Source of the DNA: a virus
Taxonomy: Duplodnaviria; Caudoviricetes
Virus record (IMG/VR): IMGVR_UViG_3300027365_000018
Location: 1-52,359 of that record
Length of the DNA stretch: 52,359 bases
Strand: one strand, 5' to 3'
The position numbers and the translations under genes were made by a program. The notes beneath the pieces were generated by a model, which saw only the letters and a list, made by a program, of their open reading frames with translations, was not told the DNA's origin and did no database searches. Position 1 is the first letter of the stretch; each line of letters starts with the position of its first letter. This document shows, one piece after another, positions 39,658 through 43,869 of this stretch.

Positions 39658-40239
39658 ATGGCACACCGATACGACTGGGAGGCGATCGAGCTCGACTACC
39701 GCACCGGCCGATACAGCCTCGCGCAACTGTCCGAACGCCACGGCCCCAACCGAGCCTCGATCAGCAAGAAGGCGACCCGGGAGGGCTGGGCCAAGGATCT
39801 GACCGCGCCGGTGGCGCAGCGGACCCGCGAGAAGCTCAGCCGGCCGGAATCCGCGCCGCTCGACCTGCCAGAATCTGACGTGATCGAGCAGGTGGCGAGC
39901 GAGAACGCCGACATTGCGCGTGGCCATCGTCGCCTGCTGGGCAACTACCGCAAGATTGCCGACCGGTTCATCACCCAGCTCGGCGACCAACTCGACCGCG
40001 GCAAGCGAGAAGTGCAGCTCGCCAACGGCGACGTCATGGAGATCGATCTCGACCTCGAGTACATCGGCAAGTGCATGGGCCACGGCACCCAGGCGCTGGA
40101 GCGGGTCATCAAGATGGAGCGTCAGAGCTACCGGCTGGATGCCGAGGAGGGCGACGAGCCGCCGGAGCGCAACCTGAGTGACGACGAGATCGAACAGCGC
40201 ATCGAGGCGCTGCAGCGGAAGGCGGGGCGGAATGCGTGA
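39658..40239 (+). CDS. terS: Terminase small subunit
   Basis: N-terminal HTH DWEAIE.DYR.G..S..I.KKA.REGW; overlaps the terL start. Confidence 0.8.
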   Translation: MAHRYDWEAIELDYRTGRYSLAQLSERHGPNRASISKKATREGWAKDLTAPVAQRTREKLSRPESAPLDLPESDVIEQVASENADIARGHRRLLGNYRKIADRFITQLGDQLDRGKREVQLANGDVMEIDLDLEYIGKCMGHGTQALERVIKMERQSYRLDAEEGDEPPERNLSDDEIEQRIEALQRKAGRNA

Positions 40240-41903
40240 CGCTCACCACCGCCGAGAAGCGCGCCTACCTGGCGCTGCTTGAAGAGCAGGAGCGCCGCCG
40301 CCGCTACAACCTGATCGACCAGCTATTCCCCGAAGACGGCACCCTCAGCCGCCACAACTACGCCAAGCACCTCGAGTTCTTCCGCGCCGGGGCTATCCAC
40401 AAGGAACGGCTGTTCATGGCCGGCAACCGTTGCGTCACGCCATGGACATTCATTGAAACGGCGTCTGGTTCGGCCCGCGCCGCAGAAGCGCTGTTCGGCT
40501 GTGCTGGTAATCTTCGGGCGTGGGCTGATGGATCTGAACGTGATGTTCGACCTGTAGACGCACACCTGGTGGGCATTGAGCCAGCGTTTCGCGTGGTTCT
40601 GGACAGCGGTCGGTTTTTCGATTGCTCCCGTAAGCACCGGGTATTGACCGACGAGGGGTGGCTTTCTCTCGACCAGTTAGTGTCGCGCGCAGATGGTCTG
40701 CATTGGTCGCATACAGCTGGAGGTTATCAGGCCAGTTGTGTCGCGGGTGGTTATCTCGATGATCGACCACTTCCTCCGTGGTCAGATAGCGCCCAAGGAC
40801 AACTTCCATCACCAAGCGGTGCTCGAACACATAGCCGCTTGGCGCTTTCGCGTGAGGATGCAGAGGCGCGAACACCTCGACATATCCGTGTTTGTCAACG
40901 CGGCGGCCACCCCGCCAGCTTTGATGACCGTCACCGTGTCGAGGCCCTGTCCGAGCCGTTTTCAGCTGCAGCGACCGACAGCGACGTTCTACCGCTGACC
41001 TGGACACACCGAGCGTTTCGGCAGCTTGCGCTTGCGTCAGATGCTCAACCTCAATCAGGTGGCGAAGCTCGACATCATCAAGCCGCTTCGCATGTAGACG
41101 GCCTGCCGGGTTCGCTATTCCACGTCGCCGCAGGTAGGCCTGCAGGGATGCCCGGGTCAGACCCAGAGAATCAGCGATCCGATAGGTCGGCTCGCCTGTT
41201 TCAATGCGTTGACGTATTTCCGGGAAGTGCTGGTCGATTGGGGATTTTCTACCCATCACGTATTCCTCGACTGGTAGGTGGAGAAACAATAGCGGCAATA
41301 GTTCCCATTGGTTTCCAGCCAATAATAGACGCTCATGTTCCCGGCCTCAACAACTACCGGGCAGCGGGCGTCTATCACCACAACTGCGGGAAAACCATCG
41401 CTGGCGGCGCTGAAATCGCCTACCACATGACTGGCCGCTACCCAGAGTGGTGGGAAGGCAGGCGGTTTGACCGCCCGATCAACGCCCTGGCCGCCGGGGA
41501 CACCAGCCAGACCACGCGCGACATCATCCAGAAGAAGCTGCTGGGAGGGCTGTGGGATACCGAGGAGTTCGGCACCGGCCTGATCCCCCGTGCGCTGCTG
41601 GGCAAGCCGACGCCTGCCCGGGGCGTGGCCAATCTCTACGAGGAAATCAGCGTAAAGCACGCCTCCGGCGGCTGGTCCCGGCTGATGCTTCGCAGCTACG
41701 ACCAGGGCCGGCGCATCTTCCAGGGCACCGAGCAGGACGTGGTGTGGCTGGACGAAGAAGTCCCGAAGGACGTCTATGACGAGGCGCTGATCCGCACCAT
41801 GACGACCCACGGCATCGTGATCATGACGTTCACGCCGCTCTCGGGCCTGACCGAGCTGGTGGTGTCGTTCCTCGAGTCGAAACACGAACAGGAGTCGGTA
41901 TGA
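40236..41903 (+). CDS. terL: Terminase large subunit, ATPase part (P22-like), containing an intein
   Basis: ERLFMAGNR|intein|CGKT Walker A, TGRYPEWWEGRRF, Walker B VWLDEE, MTFTP; 237 aa after splicing. Confidence 0.9.
   Translation: MTLTTAEKRAYLALLEEQERRRRYNLIDQLFPEDGTLSRHNYAKHLEFFRAGAIHKERLFMAGNRCVTPWTFIETASGSARAAEALFGCAGNLRAWADGSERDVRPVDAHLVGIEPAFRVVLDSGRFFDCSRKHRVLTDEGWLSLDQLVSRADGLHWSHTAGGYQASCVAGGYLDDRPLPPWSDSAQGQLPSPSGARTHSRLALSREDAEARTPRHIRVCQRGGHPASFDDRHRVEALSEPFSAAATDSDVLPLTWTHRAFRQLALASDAQPQSGGEARHHQAASHVDGLPGSLFHVAAGRPAGMPGSDPENQRSDRSARLFQCVDVFPGSAGRLGIFYPSRIPRLVGGETIAAIVPIGFQPIIDAHVPGLNNYRAAGVYHHNCGKTIAGGAEIAYHMTGRYPEWWEGRRFDRPINALAAGDTSQTTRDIIQKKLLGGLWDTEEFGTGLIPRALLGKPTPARGVANLYEEISVKHASGGWSRLMLRSYDQGRRIFQGTEQDVVWLDEEVPKDVYDEALIRTMTTHGIVIMTFTPLSGLTELVVSFLESKHEQESV
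40431..41384 (+). mobile_element. Intein 1 (318 aa) in the TerL Walker A motif
   Basis: Starts CVTPWT, block-B-like CSRKHRVLT, ends GVYHHN followed by Cys+1. Removing it restores AGNRCGKT. Confidence 0.9.
40450..41256 (-). CDS. HTH-HNH homing endonuclease encoded antisense within intein 1
   Basis: GAGGA RBS 7 nt before ATG at 41256; two HTH-like segments; WRGGR..GYV..HP.A..GYVFEHRLVME..LGRYL...EVVDHRD....HN...NL. Confidence 0.85.
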   Translation of the reverse strand: MGRKSPIDQHFPEIRQRIETGEPTYRIADSLGLTRASLQAYLRRRGIANPAGRLHAKRLDDVELRHLIEVEHLTQAQAAETLGVSRSAVERRCRSLQLKTARTGPRHGDGHQSWRGGRRVDKHGYVEVFAPLHPHAKAPSGYVFEHRLVMEVVLGRYLTTEEVVDHRDNHPRHNWPDNLQLYATNADHLRATLTGREKATPRRSIPGAYGSNRKTDRCPEPRETLAQCPPGVRLQVEHHVQIHQPTPEDYQHSRTALLRRGPNQTPFQ

Positions 41904-42187
41904 CCGCCCATCCCATCCCCGCCGATGTCGGCGCTGCGATCGCCGAAGGCCTGGCCGAGATCCAGCGCGACGCCAAGCGTGCAATCTCCCGCATCGAGAT
42001 GCCGCCGGCCTCTGCCGCCTACGTGGGCCGCACCACCAGCATGGCCAAGCGCCTCGCCGATACCGTGCGTGCCCGAGGCATCCAGTCCGGCACGCTGGCC
42101 CTGCGCATCGCCCGTCAGGTGGACCCGCACATCAGGCCCGGGCAGCGCATGGTGATCGCCGGGGCCGAGTTCACGGTGGCCGAATGA
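41900..42187 (+). CDS. Hypothetical 95-aa protein between the two terL halves
   Basis: ATGA overlaps with both flanking terL genes; AGGAG RBS. Confidence 0.65.
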   Translation: MTAHPIPADVGAAIAEGLAEIQRDAKRAISRIEMPPASAAYVGRTTSMAKRLADTVRARGIQSGTLALRIARQVDPHIRPGQRMVIAGAEFTVAE

Positions 42188-43869
42188 GCCGCTATGTCGT
42201 GCAAGCCGGTTGGCGAGACGCCCCACACCTCAGCCAGCAGGACATCGACGACATGAGCCGCTCGATCTCGCCGCATCAGCTCAAGGCGCGCATGGACGGC
42301 ACGCCCACCCTGGGCGCCGGGGCCATCTACCCGGTGCCGGAGGAGGACATCGTCGTCGAACCGTTCCAGATTCCCGAGTGGTGGCCGCGGCTGTATGGCC
42401 TCGACGTCGGCTGGAACAAGACCGCCGCCATCTGGGGCGCGCTGGACCGCGACACCGACACGCTCTACCTGAACAGCGAGCACTACCGGGGCCAGGCCGA
42501 GGCCGCCGTGCACGCCAAGGCAATAAGGATGCGCGGCGAGTGGATGCCCGGCGTCATCGACTCTGCCGCCCGGGGCCGCAGTCAGGTGGACGGCAAGAGC
42601 CTGTTTTCGCTGTACGAGGACGAGGGGCTGCACCTGCACAACGCCAACAAGGCCGTCGAGGCCGGGTTGATGGCGGTGCTCGAGCGGCTCAGTACCGGCC
42701 GGCTCAAGGTGTTCTCCACCCTGCAGCACTGGCTCGGCGAATACCGCCTGTACCGGCGCGACGAGAAGGGCCGCGTCGTGAAGGAAAACGACCACTGCCT
42801 GCACCCCGATACGCAAGTCATCACCCGGCAGGGGAGACAACGTATTTCTGACCTCGTTGGGTCAACTGGCGAGGTATTGACGCAGGGTGGGCGATGGACT
42901 TCGTATCGGAACTGCCGGATGACAGCGCGAAACGAGAAGGTCGTTACTGTGTCGTTCGAGGACGGGAGCCGGGTGACTTGCACGCCAGATCATCGCTTCT
43001 TGACGCCTGATGGGTGGGTGGAGGCGCGCGATATGGCTGGCCTGGAATGCTATAATGCAGTAACGCAAAGCATCCATGAGAGCCAGCCATGCAAGTCACC
43101 ATCATCTCCGACACCATCCAAGAGTTTGAAGGGCGGCGTTATTACCTGTGCGGCGCTTATTTCCAGAGCGATGGTGTCCGGCTACACCGCCAGGTATGGG
43201 AGCGCGCGAATGGAAAAGTGGTGCCGGAGGGTTTCCATGTACACCACAAGGATCATGACCGCAGCAACAACCAGCCGGGCAATCTCGAGCTGGTGTCAGC
43301 GTCTGACCACATGCGGCACCACCATGAAGGGCATGATCGGGGCGTTCCTGCAGAGGCAATCGAGGCTGCCAGGGCTTGGCATGGCAGTGACGCCGGGCGC
43401 GACTGGCATCGCCAGCATTACGAGCGAACCAAGGGCAAGCTCCACGTGCGCCGATCCTTCGTCTGTGAGCAGTGCGGCACCGAGTTCACGGCTCTGGATC
43501 GAGGCATCAACAGGTTCTGCTCCAATAGCTGCAAGACCAAATGGCGGAAAGAGGCGGGGCTGGATGACGAGGTTCGTCAGTGCGTTGAGTGCAAGGCGGA
43601 GTTCACGGCCAACAAGTATTCCCGCAAGCAAACATGCAGCCGCAAGTGCGGTGGTGCGCTGTCTGGGCGTAAGCGACGCCGGGAGGAGTGATGTCTACTG
43701 CCTGACGGTGCCTGAAACGGCCGCCTTTGCCGTGGAAGGCGGCGTGGTTGTTCACAACTGCATGGACGCCACCCGTTATCTGGTCATGGGGCTGCAGCAC
43801 GCCACCACGCGACCCATCGAACGCCATGCCACATCGGCCCGCCCGGGCGATCTGACGACAGGATACTGA
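42184..43869 (+). CDS. terL: Terminase large subunit, nuclease part, containing an intein
   Basis: GWRDAPHL..AR.DG.PTLG.GAIY, GLDVGWN, EYRLYRRDEKG.VVKENDH|intein|CMDATRY; 240 aa after splicing. Confidence 0.9.
   Translation: MSRYVVQAGWRDAPHLSQQDIDDMSRSISPHQLKARMDGTPTLGAGAIYPVPEEDIVVEPFQIPEWWPRLYGLDVGWNKTAAIWGALDRDTDTLYLNSEHYRGQAEAAVHAKAIRMRGEWMPGVIDSAARGRSQVDGKSLFSLYEDEGLHLHNANKAVEAGLMAVLERLSTGRLKVFSTLQHWLGEYRLYRRDEKGRVVKENDHCLHPDTQVITRQGRQRISDLVGSTGEVLTQGGRWTSYRNCRMTARNEKVVTVSFEDGSRVTCTPDHRFLTPDGWVEARDMAGLECYNAVTQSIHESQPCKSPSSPTPSKSLKGGVITCAALISRAMVSGYTARYGSARMEKWCRRVSMYTTRIMTAATTSRAISSWCQRLTTCGTTMKGMIGAFLQRQSRLPGLGMAVTPGATGIASITSEPRASSTCADPSSVSSAAPSSRLWIEASTGSAPIAARPNGGKRRGWMTRFVSALSARRSSRPTSIPASKHAAASAVVRCLGVSDAGRSDVYCLTVPETAAFAVEGGVVVHNCMDATRYLVMGLQHATTRPIERHATSARPGDLTTGY
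42796..43758 (+). mobile_element. Intein 2 (321 aa) in the TerL nuclease DH-xx-DA-x-RY motif
   Basis: Starts CLHPDTQV, block B CTPDHRFLT, block F DVYCLTV, ends VVVHN followed by Cys+1. Confidence 0.93.
43089..43691 (+). CDS. HNH homing endonuclease with zinc-ribbon repeats, in an alternate frame within intein 2
   Basis: LHRQVWE..G..PEGFHVHHKD.DRSNN...NLEL....H; CEQC..FCS..C and CVEC..CSRKC; offset +2 from the terL frame. Confidence 0.88.
   Translation: MQVTIISDTIQEFEGRRYYLCGAYFQSDGVRLHRQVWERANGKVVPEGFHVHHKDHDRSNNQPGNLELVSASDHMRHHHEGHDRGVPAEAIEAARAWHGSDAGRDWHRQHYERTKGKLHVRRSFVCEQCGTEFTALDRGINRFCSNSCKTKWRKEAGLDDEVRQCVECKAEFTANKYSRKQTCSRKCGGALSGRKRRREE

What the first reader, a model, noticed from the sequence alone, without database searches (positions are those of the whole stretch)
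40431..41384. Intein whose homing endonuclease is a separate gene on the antisense strand
A 318-aa intein splits the TerL Walker A motif (AGNR|C...HN|CGKT). Its central region has no recognisable endonuclease in the intein frame and reads as shadow sequence. The opposite strand (41256-40450) encodes a coherent 268-aa HTH-HTH-HNH protein with its own GAGGA RBS. Both strands stay stop-free over about 800 bp, including overlap with the N-terminal splicing domain. Canonical inteins carry the nuclease in frame. Here it would need its own antisense transcript, uncoupling homing from TerL expression. I cannot confirm whether this arrangement has been reported before.
Basis: partly seen in the sequence, partly recalled or inferred. 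Interest (0 to 1): 0.85.

Follow-up and report, generated by a model that had tools for sequence, protein, structure and literature searches.

The report
Terminase intein with antisense HNH gene
A phage DNA-packaging gene is interrupted in its ATP-binding loop by a self-splicing intein whose homing nuclease is an intact, selected HNH gene on the opposite strand; it is an HNH version of a layout already described for other nucleases.

Summary
The stretch 40431-41384 is a 318-aa class-1-type intein in the TerL Walker A motif (AGNR|C...HHN|CGKT). Only residues 1-86 and 272-318 fold as a Hint domain. The middle 185 residues show no protein-level constraint.

The opposite strand (41256..40450) carries an intact 268-aa HTH-HTH-HNH gene with a Shine-Dalgarno site and a sigma-70-like promoter site.

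The layout recurs:
- 66 of 68 related loci have it.
- All 42 non-redundant inteins keep both frames open in the same relative register.
- Substitution patterns show purifying selection on the HNH frame in the centre (dN/dS 0.11-0.27) and on the intein frame at the ends.
- No wobble position remains over about 200 nt where the HNH tail overlaps the N-terminal splicing domain.

The closest TerL relatives (84-90% identical) lack the element, so it behaves as mobile.

The arrangement is published for antisense LAGLIDADG and VSR-like nucleases (Gorbalenya 1998 as cited by Gosselin et al. 2025). I found no paper on an antisense HNH version. This scan has noted the same layout before on other DNA (89 findings in at least 71 genomes).

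The same TerL carries a second intein with an out-of-frame HNH gene on the same strand. Expression, splicing and cleavage remain untested.

The parts
40236..40430 (+). TerL N-extein (65 aa), ends ...FMAGNR, the first half of the Walker A motif
   Evidence: ORF 40236..41903. tblastn of JB8 and Bjorn TerL aligns from the P-loop onward.
40431..41384 (+). Intein-1, 318 aa, C1 ... HHN, followed by the +1 Cys at 41385
   Evidence: Translation. Boundaries are shared by 63 related loci. Profile match to DnaB mini-inteins, E 1.7e-4, in two stretches. Hint fold.
40431..40688 (+). N-terminal splicing (Hint) region, intein residues 1-86
   Evidence: pLDDT 56-83, beta-rich. Aligns to mini-inteins. Invariant C1, T6, E9, T10, D64, C65, H69.
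40689..41243 (+). Intein-frame linker, residues 87-271: stop-free shadow of the antisense gene with no protein-level constraint
   Evidence: pLDDT below 50 throughout. No Pfam domain. Sense-frame dN/dS 1.45-2.59. Most variable at intein codon position 2.
41244..41384 (+). C-terminal splicing (Hint) region, residues 272-318 (...GFQPIIDAHVP...VYHHN)
   Evidence: pLDDT 61-77. Sense dN/dS 0.06-0.27. Invariant G294, Q296, P297, D300, H317, N318.
41385..41903 (+). TerL ATPase C-extein (CGKT...), ends with a stop at 41901-41903
   Evidence: Pfam Terminase_6N, E 1.3e-16, residues 384-551 of the precursor. 49-55% identity to Pseudomonas phage TerL proteins.
40450..41256 (-). Antisense HTH-HTH-HNH gene, 268 aa plus stop (stop at 40452..40450)
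   Evidence: PHROG HNH families, best E 8.8e-21. 337 database relatives, more than 100 of them full length. Antisense dN/dS 0.11-0.27 in the centre. pLDDT 82.4.
40675..40905 (-). HNH nuclease core, residues 118-194
   Evidence: pLDDT above 90. Invariant E145, H146, D168, H173, N174, W175, N178, N185, H188 in 33 sequences. I-HmuI 1u3e_M: Z 4.8, rmsd 4.3, 79 aligned.
40972..41241 (-). Two helix-turn-helix units, residues 6-44 and 61-95
   Evidence: Model helices. HTH fold matches at Z 5-6.5. Weak Pfam HTH hits. The short forms of the family lack the first unit.
40450..40688 (.). Dual-coding zone: the HNH C-terminal tail (helical domain, residues 221-260) is encoded antisense to the Hint N-terminal region
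   Evidence: No wobble position across 861 pairs. 40 of 42 sequences have no antisense stop against 8.8 expected. Tail pLDDT 84-95. Tail conserved in 33 aligned homologues.
41264..41268 (-). Shine-Dalgarno GAGGA, 7 nt before the ATG at 41256
   Evidence: Read. An SD-like motif is present in 33 of 42 non-redundant relatives.
41322..41350 (-). Sigma-70-like promoter site TTGAGG-17-TATTAT inside the block-F codons of the intein
   Evidence: The only site found in 40200-41700 on either strand (0.3 expected). A promoter-like site lies within 150 nt upstream of the HNH start in 16 of 42 relatives against 2.3 expected, 9 of them at the same position. Not tested for function.
42796..43758 (+). Intein-2 in the TerL nuclease half (KENDH|CLHP...VVVHN|CMDATRY), 321 aa
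   Evidence: Pfam Intein_splicing, E 7.7e-9. Boundaries. Absent from the 15 TerL relatives examined.
43089..43691 (+). HNH gene nested in intein-2 on the same strand in another reading frame, 200 aa
   Evidence: Pfam HNH_3, E 3e-17. phrog_15471, E 1.4e-54. The same nesting is seen in 7 of 11 related loci.

Best explanation
This is a composite selfish element.

Shown:
- A class-1-type intein sits in the TerL P-loop.
- Both reading frames are open and conserved.
- Selection acts on each frame where expected.
- The Hint fold and the conserved HNH residues are present.
- The element is patchily distributed among TerL genes.

Inferred (sense strand): the late terL message is translated into a precursor. 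Intein residues 1-86 and 272-318 form the Hint domain. The 185-residue middle is an unstructured tether that only has to stay free of stop codons. Splicing then restores AGNR-CGKT.

Inferred (antisense strand): a separate transcript, probably started at a promoter inside the C-terminal splicing codons, is translated from its own Shine-Dalgarno site and ATG into a 268-aa HTH-HTH-HNH protein. This protein cuts or nicks intein-free terL alleles near the Walker A codons in co-infecting phages. Recombinational repair then copies in the intein, the nuclease gene and a short 3' flank.

Transcription, splicing, cleavage and target site are all untested.
For: **Intein**
- C1, block-B His69, D300 and H317-N318 are invariant in 6 aligned inteins, and +1 is C, S or T. 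All 42 non-redundant alleles have C, S or T at +1.
- The profile matches DnaB mini-inteins at E 1.7e-4 in two stretches, 17-85 and 284-315.
- The model folds only residues 1-86 and 272-318. All 23 PDB matches at E <= 0.001 are intein splicing domains, e.g. RecA mini-intein 5i0a at E 1.1e-4, rmsd 2.3 over 87 columns.

**Nuclease gene**
- tblastn reaches phage HNH genes at up to 43% identity, E 2e-22.
- PHROG HNH families score as low as E 8.8e-21.
- 33 BFVD matches have E <= 0.001, and the named ones are mostly HNH or homing endonucleases.
- The database holds 337 relatives.

**Recurrence**
- 66 of 68 loci have the opposite-strand frame open over the whole HNH match.
- 63 of 68 have Hint-N and Hint-C hits in one frame.
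- 42 of 42 non-redundant inteins carry an antisense open segment of 222-317 codons in the same relative frame.

**Selection**
- In 13 chosen close pairs the centre has sense dN/dS 1.45-2.59 and antisense dN/dS 0.11-0.27 (12 of the 13 pairs; one antisense estimate failed). Hint-C has sense dN/dS 0.06-0.27 (11 of the 13 pairs; two estimates failed).
- The position-specific pattern holds over 861 pairs.

**Mobility**
- Of 78 TerL relatives, 73 have empty sites, including eight of the nine at 84-90% identity. Four carry an intein and one is cut by a contig end.
- The HNH is 50-57% identical between TerL genes whose exteins do not align.
- The element has lower G+C (0.55-0.62) than its flanks (0.63-0.68).
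- The window, L074 and the intein-free L077 share the same +1 Cys and the same 3' flank codons, unlike the other close empty alleles.

**Own expression signals**
- The window has GAGGA before the ATG. SD-like motifs occur in 33 of 42 relatives.
- Promoter-like sites occur in 16 of 42 against 2.3 expected.
Against: - No expression, splicing or cleavage data exist for any member that I could find.
- Pfam HNH_3 on the window's protein is below the curated cut-off (19.0 against 24.8 bits).
- Foldseek against the PDB gave no match at E <= 0.001 for the HNH model, and the I-HmuI match is middling (Z 4.8).
- 26 of 42 relatives have no promoter-like site by the simple rule. The -10-like hexamer at block F is TANNAT in only 20 of the 40 sequences that have the block-F motif.
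- The 42 sequences are related, so the counts are not independent events.
- In the overlap zone the antisense frame looks weakly constrained in the closest pairs (dN/dS 0.64-0.78 against 0.21-0.26 for the sense frame). The tail's function is therefore less certain than the core's.
- The co-conversion reading rests on three alleles. No general flank signature appears across the whole family.
Confidence: 0.8

Rival explanations
1. The antisense HNH gene was co-opted for a phage function. It could be a packaging-associated HNH that works with terminase, or its HTH units could act as a regulator. In this reading it does not drive homing of the intein.
For: - HNH genes next to terminase genes are common in phages (abstract of PMC3592412, seen in the listing).
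- The protein carries two HTH units that resemble regulators.
- Purifying selection shows that the protein functions but not what it does.
Against: - Eight of the nine closest TerL relatives (84-90% identical) lack the intein and the HNH together, so the protein is dispensable for packaging in this lineage.
- The HNH always travels with the intein: all 4 intein-carrying alleles found through the extein carry one.
- It occurs in unrelated TerL families, which is the pattern of a selfish element.
- Its relatives are annotated as HNH or homing endonucleases.
Confidence: 0.08
2. The HNH gene is no longer expressed or active. The element is now a vertically inherited intein with a long tether. The open antisense frame persists through recent ancestry and through constraint from the sense frame.
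For: - No RNA or protein evidence exists.
- 26 of 42 relatives lack a promoter-like site.
- The sequences are phylogenetically related.
- The published model expects antisense ORFs to decay quickly once homing stops (section 15 of 10.1101/2025.01.02.630785).
Against: - Antisense dN/dS is 0.11-0.27 at dS up to 4.7.
- All 42 non-redundant copies are intact down to about 46% identity.
- The catalytic-type residues are invariant.
- In the centre the sense frame imposes no constraint that could explain the conservation (sense dN/dS above 1).
- Antisense stops are missing even where synonymous resampling expects them: 2 observed in total against 1.6 per sequence expected.
Confidence: 0.07
3. The insertion is not a splicing intein. 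It would be an in-frame insertion tolerated as a loop, or an intron-like element carrying a hidden HNH, like the ShiLan insertion in a phage methylase.
For: - Pfam does not detect a Hint or intein domain in the window's own sequence.
- Out-of-frame HNH insertions without splicing domains exist (abstract of PMC11855218).
Against: - The Hint fold and mini-intein matches are present.
- C1, the block-B His and the terminal HN are conserved, and +1 is C, S or T in 42 of 42 alleles.
- The insertion splits the P-loop itself, where a 318-residue loop is unlikely to be tolerated (inference).
- The ends are under purifying selection in the sense frame.
Confidence: 0.03

Closest known systems
Non-canonical inteins with an antisense homing-endonuclease ORF: antisense LAGLIDADG (Synechocystis DnaX and a Chloroflexus SpoVR-like protein; Gorbalenya 1998 and Gogarten 2002, as cited in the preprint) and antisense LAGLIDADG or VSR-like in actinobacteriophage inteins, including TerL (Gosselin, Arsenault, Gogarten, bioRxiv 10.1101/2025.01.02.630785; abstract and sections 8 and 15 read)
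   Same: - A contiguous intein keeps its frame open across a nuclease gene on the opposite strand.
- The nuclease resembles free-standing phage endonucleases.
- TerL is a host gene.
- The distribution is patchy and suggests continuing transfer.
   Different: - The nuclease here is an HTH-HNH (HNH_3-like) protein, a type not among the antisense forms listed in that preprint.
- The hosts are high-G+C and enterobacterial-type phages and MAG prophages, not actinophages.
- The family is large: 337 proteins and 66 loci.
[quoted passage not shown]
- I could not see the preprint's supplementary tables, which list its clusters.
Canonical bifunctional inteins with an in-frame nuclease (LAGLIDADG, or in-frame HNH as cited from Dalgaard et al. 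1997 in the preprint)
   Same: A Hint splicing domain is interrupted, between its N- and C-terminal blocks, by DNA that encodes a homing nuclease. The insertion lies in a conserved active-site motif.
   Different: The nuclease is not part of the intein polypeptide. It needs its own transcript and ribosome-binding site. The in-frame middle of the intein is non-functional filler.
Fractured genes: split inteins with a free-standing GIY-YIG or VSR-like endonuclease gene between the halves (Dassa et al. 2009, PMC2677866; passages read)
   Same: A free-standing-type endonuclease gene sits at the usual nuclease position of an intein. The hosts are phage-like and include a terminase. There are short coding overlaps (6-69 bp) with the intein part.
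   Different: Here the host gene and intein stay in one open frame, so splicing is in cis. The nuclease is on the opposite strand, and the overlap is far longer.
TerL P-loop inteins of mycobacteriophages (Kelley et al. 2016, PMC5050341; passages read)
   Same: The intein lies in the Walker A motif of the TerL ATPase. A minority of this family (L049 and L056 types) uses the classic GK|T position.
   Different: Those passages describe no antisense or out-of-frame nuclease. Most members here insert three residues upstream (GNR|C/S/T-GKT).
ShiLan-type hidden out-of-frame HNH insertions (Arsenault et al. 2025, PMC11855218; abstract read) and the frame-3 endonuclease VII-like nuclease in actinophage inteins (same preprint as above)
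   Same: These are the closest match for the second intein of this TerL (42796-43758). There an HNH gene (43089-43691) lies on the same strand in another frame.
   Different: ShiLan has no splicing domain. The frame-3 case in the preprint uses endonuclease VII, not HNH.

Membership tests
Intein (Hint splicing domain, class-1 type) | N-terminal Cys or Ser at position 1 | tested here: met
   C1 in the window. Invariant in 6 aligned inteins and present in the 63 loci with mapped boundaries.
Intein (Hint splicing domain, class-1 type) | Block-B His (TxxH-type motif; the motif name is recalled) | tested here: met
   SRKH with H69 invariant. It aligns to the corresponding stretch of DnaB mini-inteins.
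Intein (Hint splicing domain, class-1 type) | C-terminal His-Asn followed by Cys, Ser or Thr at +1 | tested here: met
   HHN|C in the window. All 42 non-redundant alleles end in HN, and +1 is C, S or T.
Intein (Hint splicing domain, class-1 type) | Hint fold formed by the N- and C-terminal parts | tested here: met
   AF2 model: residues 1-86 and 272-318 at pLDDT 56-83. All 23 Foldseek PDB matches at E <= 0.001 are intein splicing domains. The window sequence alone gets no Pfam intein hit, and only 1 of 6 relatives gets a weak one (E 0.0066).
Intein (Hint splicing domain, class-1 type) | In-frame insertion at a conserved host site, with homologues that lack it | tested here: met
   73 of 78 related TerL loci read GNR-xGKT without an insertion. 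JB8 and Bjorn TerL are contiguous.
Intein (Hint splicing domain, class-1 type) | Protein splicing activity | not testable with these tools
   Inferred only: TerL is essential, and the sense-frame ends are under purifying selection.
HNH endonuclease (Pfam HNH_3 type) | Score at or above the Pfam gathering cut-off | tested here: not met
   19.0 bits against the cut-off of 24.8, E 0.0011. Several homologues carry PF13392 in precomputed annotation. PHROG HNH families match at E 8.8e-21, 2.1e-18 and 3.1e-17.
HNH endonuclease (Pfam HNH_3 type) | Conserved His and Asn residues of the nuclease motif | tested here: met
   E145, H146, D168, H173, N174, N178, N185 and H188 are invariant in 33 sequences. 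Assigning them to catalytic roles is recall, not a test.
HNH endonuclease (Pfam HNH_3 type) | beta-beta-alpha-metal fold like solved HNH homing endonucleases | tested here: inconclusive
   I-HmuI 1u3e_M: Foldseek probability 0.82 at E 0.6; VIA Z 4.8, rmsd 4.3, 79 aligned. BFVD predicted HNH and homing endonucleases match at E 3.7e-10 to 1e-3.
HNH endonuclease (Pfam HNH_3 type) | Site-specific nicking or cleavage | not testable with these tools
Non-canonical inteins with an antisense homing endonuclease (Gorbalenya 1998; Gosselin et al. 2025) | Nuclease ORF on the opposite strand inside a contiguous intein whose own frame stays open | tested here: met
Non-canonical inteins with an antisense homing endonuclease (Gorbalenya 1998; Gosselin et al. 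2025) | Nuclease of the LAGLIDADG or VSR-like type (the described antisense forms) | tested here: not met
   The nuclease is HTH-HNH. This makes it a different variant of the same kind.
Non-canonical inteins with an antisense homing endonuclease (Gorbalenya 1998; Gosselin et al. 2025) | Secondary ORF outside the splicing domain (described as typical, section 15) | tested here: not met
   The HNH ORF covers 40450-40688 of the Hint N-terminal region. Both frames are constrained there.
Fractured gene / split intein with free-standing endonuclease (Dassa et al. 2009) | Host gene and intein broken into two ORFs with the nuclease gene between them | tested here: not met
   One open frame runs through the whole intein in the window and in 66 of 68 loci.
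Mobile (homing) element | Patchy presence among close host alleles, and presence in unrelated host alleles | tested here: met
   Eight of the nine relatives at 84-90% identity are empty. The HNH is 50-57% identical across TerL genes with unalignable exteins.
Mobile (homing) element | Co-conversion of flanking extein sequence | tested here: inconclusive
   The window, L074 and the empty L077 share TGC-GGG-AAA...GCn-GAA in the first 30 nt of the C-extein: 26 of 30 identical against 17-21 for the other close alleles. This rests on three alleles, and there is no family-wide signature.

The most novel reading that the evidence does not exclude
The nuclease gene and the splicing element are physically interlocked.
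- The last 70 or so codons of the HNH protein, a confidently predicted helical domain that may bind DNA, are read antisense to the N-terminal Hint codons.
- The HNH promoter lies inside the block-F codons of the C-terminal Hint region.

If this is right, neither recombination nor decay can separate the nuclease from the intein without breaking terL. It would also mean the nuclease is transcribed against, and perhaps before, the late terL message, so homing is timed independently of packaging. That would be a new way for a homing element to resist the usual cycle of nuclease loss.
Probability: 0.3. Interest if true: 0.7.

Novelty: new variant of a known kind. Interest (0 to 1): 0.5.

Why it matters
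- Inteins are thought to have acquired their nucleases by invasion of a splicing element by free-standing endonuclease genes. This family is a large, living set of such composites in which the two parts are still separate genes. It offers named, culturable examples (the Pectobacterium phage Ymer group) for testing that model.
- About 200 nt are under selection on both strands in opposite directions, which is rare in bacteria and phages.
- Gene callers annotate only one of the two strands. In the Ymer record TerL is a 'hypothetical protein' and the HNH is not annotated. Terminase genes and nucleases of this kind are therefore systematically mis-annotated.
- The nuclease, if active, would be a new sequence-specific HNH enzyme aimed at a conserved P-loop coding sequence.

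Tried and rejected
**Readings rejected**
- Chance ORF: rejected by the shuffle tests and by homology.
- Split intein or fractured gene: rejected because the frame is continuous.

**Searches that gave little**
- Foldseek of the whole HNH model against the PDB gave no match at E <= 0.001. VIA-align mostly returned HTH domains.
- The idea that the block-F Ile codons are universally kept as an antisense -10 box did not hold. TANNAT occurs there in 20 of the 40 sequences that have the block-F motif. ATA makes up 19 of 40 codons at one position, against 111 of 480 Ile codons elsewhere. This is suggestive only.
- A family-wide 3' flank codon signature was sought and not found.
- RNA evidence: the look-up of sequencing runs listed no RNA holder.
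- Complex prediction and the search of protein representatives were not used because no claim needed them.

**Literature**
- Six full-text searches returned no paper describing an antisense HNH gene inside an intein.
- The library lacks most subscription journals. Gorbalenya 1998 and Gogarten 2002 were not read; they are cited only through the preprint.
- Supplementary tables of the preprint were closed and may list related cases.

**Limits of the counts**
- Alignment A1 used 31 of the 120 listed proteins plus 2 locus translations.
- A2 used the window plus 5 of the 7 loci then in hand (three of those loci are near-identical).
- The dN/dS tables used 13 and 11 pairs that I chose for moderate divergence, out of 861.
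- One search examined 15 of the 78 extein loci: the 10 at 76-90% identity and 5 of those at 62-69%.
- One 'empty' row (L146) looks like a poor alignment.
Full report
**What is in the window.** The window is an IMG/VR virus record of 52,359 bp with about 65% G+C. TerS lies at 39658..40239 (phrog_1206, E 1.2e-34). It is followed by an ORF at 40236..41903 (555 aa) whose residues 384-551 match Terminase_6N (E 1.3e-16).

Between ...FMAGNR and CGKTIAGG lies a 318-aa stretch (40431-41384). It starts CVTPWT and ends VYHHN. TerL proteins of Pseudomonas phages JB8 and Bjorn read GNRCGKT straight through.

The opposite strand holds an ORF at 41256..40450 (268 aa). GAGGA lies 7 nt before its ATG (read). 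The insertion has lower G+C (0.55-0.62) than its flanks (0.63-0.68).

**Is the double open frame chance?** No. I kept the HNH protein and its codon usage and shuffled synonymous codons. The intein frame then acquires 5.4 stops on average. None is observed, and only 0.06% of 5000 shuffles have none.

The reverse test resampled synonymous codons of the Hint N-terminal region in 42 non-redundant relatives. It expects 1.6 antisense stops per sequence and 8.8 stop-free sequences. In fact 40 of 42 are stop-free.

**The intein is real.**
- Pfam does not see it in the window's sequence.
- A profile of six family members matches DnaB mini-inteins in the PDB (4o1r, E 1.7e-4). The match falls in two stretches, positions 17-85 and 284-315, and skips the middle.
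- The AlphaFold2 model folds residues 1-86 and 272-318 as beta structure (block means 56-83). It leaves 87-271 below pLDDT 50, with block means of 23-40.
- Foldseek finds 23 PDB matches at E <= 0.001, all intein splicing domains. The best is the RecA mini-intein 5i0a (E 1.1e-4, rmsd 2.3 over 87 columns).
- C1, H69, D300, H317 and N318 are invariant. The +1 residue is C, S or T in all 42 non-redundant alleles.

**The antisense gene is a real HNH gene.**
- tblastn finds phage HNH genes (43% identity over residues 72-196, E 2e-22).
- PHROG HNH families match at E 8.8e-21 to 3.1e-17.
- The large protein database holds 337 relatives, and more than 100 are full length (266-281 aa) at 46-88% identity.
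- In an alignment of 33 of them, E145, H146, D168, H173, N174, W175, N178, N185 and H188 are invariant.
- The model (pLDDT 82.4) shows two HTH units, an HNH core above pLDDT 90, a disordered linker (199-211) and a helical C-terminal domain at pLDDT 84-95.
- Fold matches to solved structures are weak: I-HmuI at Z 4.8. Pfam HNH_3 is below its cut-off. BFVD gives 33 matches at E <= 0.001, and the named ones are mostly HNH or homing endonucleases.

**The layout recurs.**
- In Pectobacterium phage Ymer, a 754-aa 'hypothetical protein' upstream of the portal gene is a TerL with an intein at GFG|C...HHN|TGKS. A 232-aa HNH homologue lies on the opposite strand and is not annotated.
- Searches of viral contigs and species-representative genomes with the HNH protein or its alignment returned 68 loci.
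- In 66 of them a single opposite-strand frame is open over the whole HNH match. The two exceptions (L065, L066) are distant partial matches that look free-standing.
- Of the 68, 63 have Hint-N and Hint-C matches in one frame. L012 is cut by its contig end. L072 and L073 match only at the C-terminal part, and L072 still reads as C...HN|CGKT.
- After removing near-duplicates, 42 inteins remain. All carry an antisense open segment of 222-317 codons in the same relative frame.
- Most sit at GN[RQ]|[CST]GK[ST]. A minority sit three residues downstream at GK|[TS].
- A relative found through the extein (L130/L131) has the same site and an antisense HNH of 189 aa with a short, different tail that does not reach the Hint N-terminal region.

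**Which frame is selected where.** Intein codon position 2 is the antisense wobble position, and intein position 3 is the antisense second position. The table gives differences per site over 861 pairs.

| Region | Intein position 2 | Intein position 3 | Reading |
|---|---|---|---|
| 40701-41195 | 0.59-0.72 | 0.24-0.59 | antisense frame is coding |
| 41241-41384 | 0.03-0.34 | 0.44-0.64 | sense frame is coding |
| 40431-40655 | no wobble position; all three positions 0.28-0.52 | | both frames constrained |

Nei-Gojobori estimates for 13 chosen pairs:

| Region | Frame | dN/dS |
|---|---|---|
| Centre | sense | 1.45-2.59 |
| Centre | antisense | 0.11-0.27 (12 of 13 pairs; one estimate failed) |
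| C-terminal Hint part | sense | 0.06-0.27 (11 of 13 pairs; two estimates failed) |

In the overlap zone both dS values are depressed and both ratios are intermediate. The sense frame is the more constrained in the closest pairs. So the HNH core is clearly selected. The tail is kept open and predicted to fold, but its function is less certain.

**Mobility.**
- A search with the C-extein returned 78 TerL loci: 73 empty sites, 4 with an intein and 1 cut by a contig end. All 4 intein-carrying alleles have an antisense HNH.
- Of the nine relatives at 84-90% identity, only L074 carries the intein. L074 lies on the same contig as L006.
- Empty alleles mostly have V, I, L, F or M where intein alleles have C, S or T.
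- The HNH is 50-57% identical between TerL genes whose exteins cannot be aligned.
- Within the window's clade, the first 30 nt after the intein (TGC GGG AAA ... GCn GAA) are shared by the window, L074 and the intein-free L077, but not by the other empty alleles: 26 of 30 identical against 17-21. I read this as a co-conversion tract, and L077 as a footprint of loss. That is an inference from three alleles.

**Expression signals.**
- One sigma-70-like site (TTGAGG-17-TATTAT, 41350..41322, minus strand) is the only one found in 40200-41700 on either strand. Its -10 is the reverse complement of the two ATA Ile codons of the block-F motif QPIID.
- By the same rule, 16 of 42 relatives have a site within 150 nt upstream of the HNH start, against 2.3 expected from triplet shuffles. 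The sites fall at two recurrent positions.
- SD-like motifs precede 33 of 42 starts.
- No RNA run could be listed, so transcription is not shown.

**Comparison with what is known.**
- The preprint by Gosselin, Arsenault and Gogarten (abstract and sections 8 and 15 read) describes actinophage inteins, including TerL inteins, with antisense LAGLIDADG or VSR-like nucleases and a frame-3 endonuclease VII-like nuclease. It credits antisense LAGLIDADG inteins to Gorbalenya 1998 and Gogarten 2002.
- It lists HNH only as an in-frame form. [quoted passage not shown]
- Six literature searches found no antisense HNH case.
- This is therefore a new variant of a known kind: a new nuclease family, other phage groups, a large family and a long dual-coding overlap.
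- The scan's own records hold 89 earlier findings of this layout in at least 71 genomes, several followed up with the same conclusion. My results were obtained independently and agree with them.

**What is special to this window.** The same TerL has two further insertions.
- A second intein (42796-43758; Pfam Intein_splicing, E 7.7e-9) splits KENDH|CMDATRY in the nuclease half. It contains a 200-aa HNH_3 gene (43089-43691; E 3e-17) on the same strand in another frame.
- The same nesting occurs in 7 of 11 related loci. This intein is absent from the 15 TerL relatives examined.
- A 95-aa ORF (41900..42187) with host-like third-position G+C (0.87) separates the ATPase and nuclease halves into two genes. 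It is present in the 10 relatives at 76-90% identity and absent from the 5 more distant ones examined.

**Verdict.** The mechanism is well grounded for everything sequence can show. It is untested for transcription, splicing and cleavage.

Noticed in passing
42796-43758 (intein-2) and 43089-43691 (nested HNH): A second intein in the TerL nuclease half (KENDH|C...VVVHN|CMDATRY) carries a 200-aa HNH_3 gene on the same strand in another reading frame. The same nesting occurs in 7 of 11 related viral loci. The intein is absent from the 15 TerL relatives examined.
   Followed up: partly
41900-42187: A 95-aa ORF with no family match and host-like codon bias splits TerL into separate ATPase and nuclease genes, with ATGA overlaps on both sides. 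JB8 and Bjorn TerL are contiguous here. The split is conserved in the 10 relatives at 76-90% identity and absent in the 5 more distant ones examined. This is the subject of another first-reader note (e1-6300863).
   Followed up: partly
L077 1730-1765 (IMG/VR locus, empty terL allele): This intein-free allele carries Cys at the +1 position and the same 3' flank codons as the intein-bearing window and L074. That looks like a footprint of precise intein loss or of co-conversion without the intein.
   Followed up: partly
L130 and L131 (upstream of 2498 and 1050); L001 2959-3657 (phage Ymer): These variants have the same layout, but the antisense HNH has a different, shorter C-terminal tail that does not overlap the N-terminal splicing region. 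The long overlapping tail is therefore specific to the window's subfamily.
   Followed up: partly
L049-L054, L056, L064: In these loci the same intein-plus-antisense-HNH element sits three residues downstream, at the classic P-loop position GK|T/S instead of GNR|C/S/T. This suggests movement between neighbouring sites.
   Followed up: no
L001 1586-3850 (Pectobacterium phage Ymer, OP748252.2): The intein-bearing TerL is annotated as 'hypothetical protein', the antisense HNH ORF is not annotated, and a small upstream gene is labelled 'terminase'. Seven further named phages gave the same HNH match, but their annotation was not inspected.
   Followed up: no
41322-41350 and the homologous positions in relatives: Promoter-like sites on the antisense strand fall at two recurrent distances from the HNH start, with the -35 element about 94 nt or about 61 nt upstream, in 16 of 42 relatives.
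   Followed up: partly
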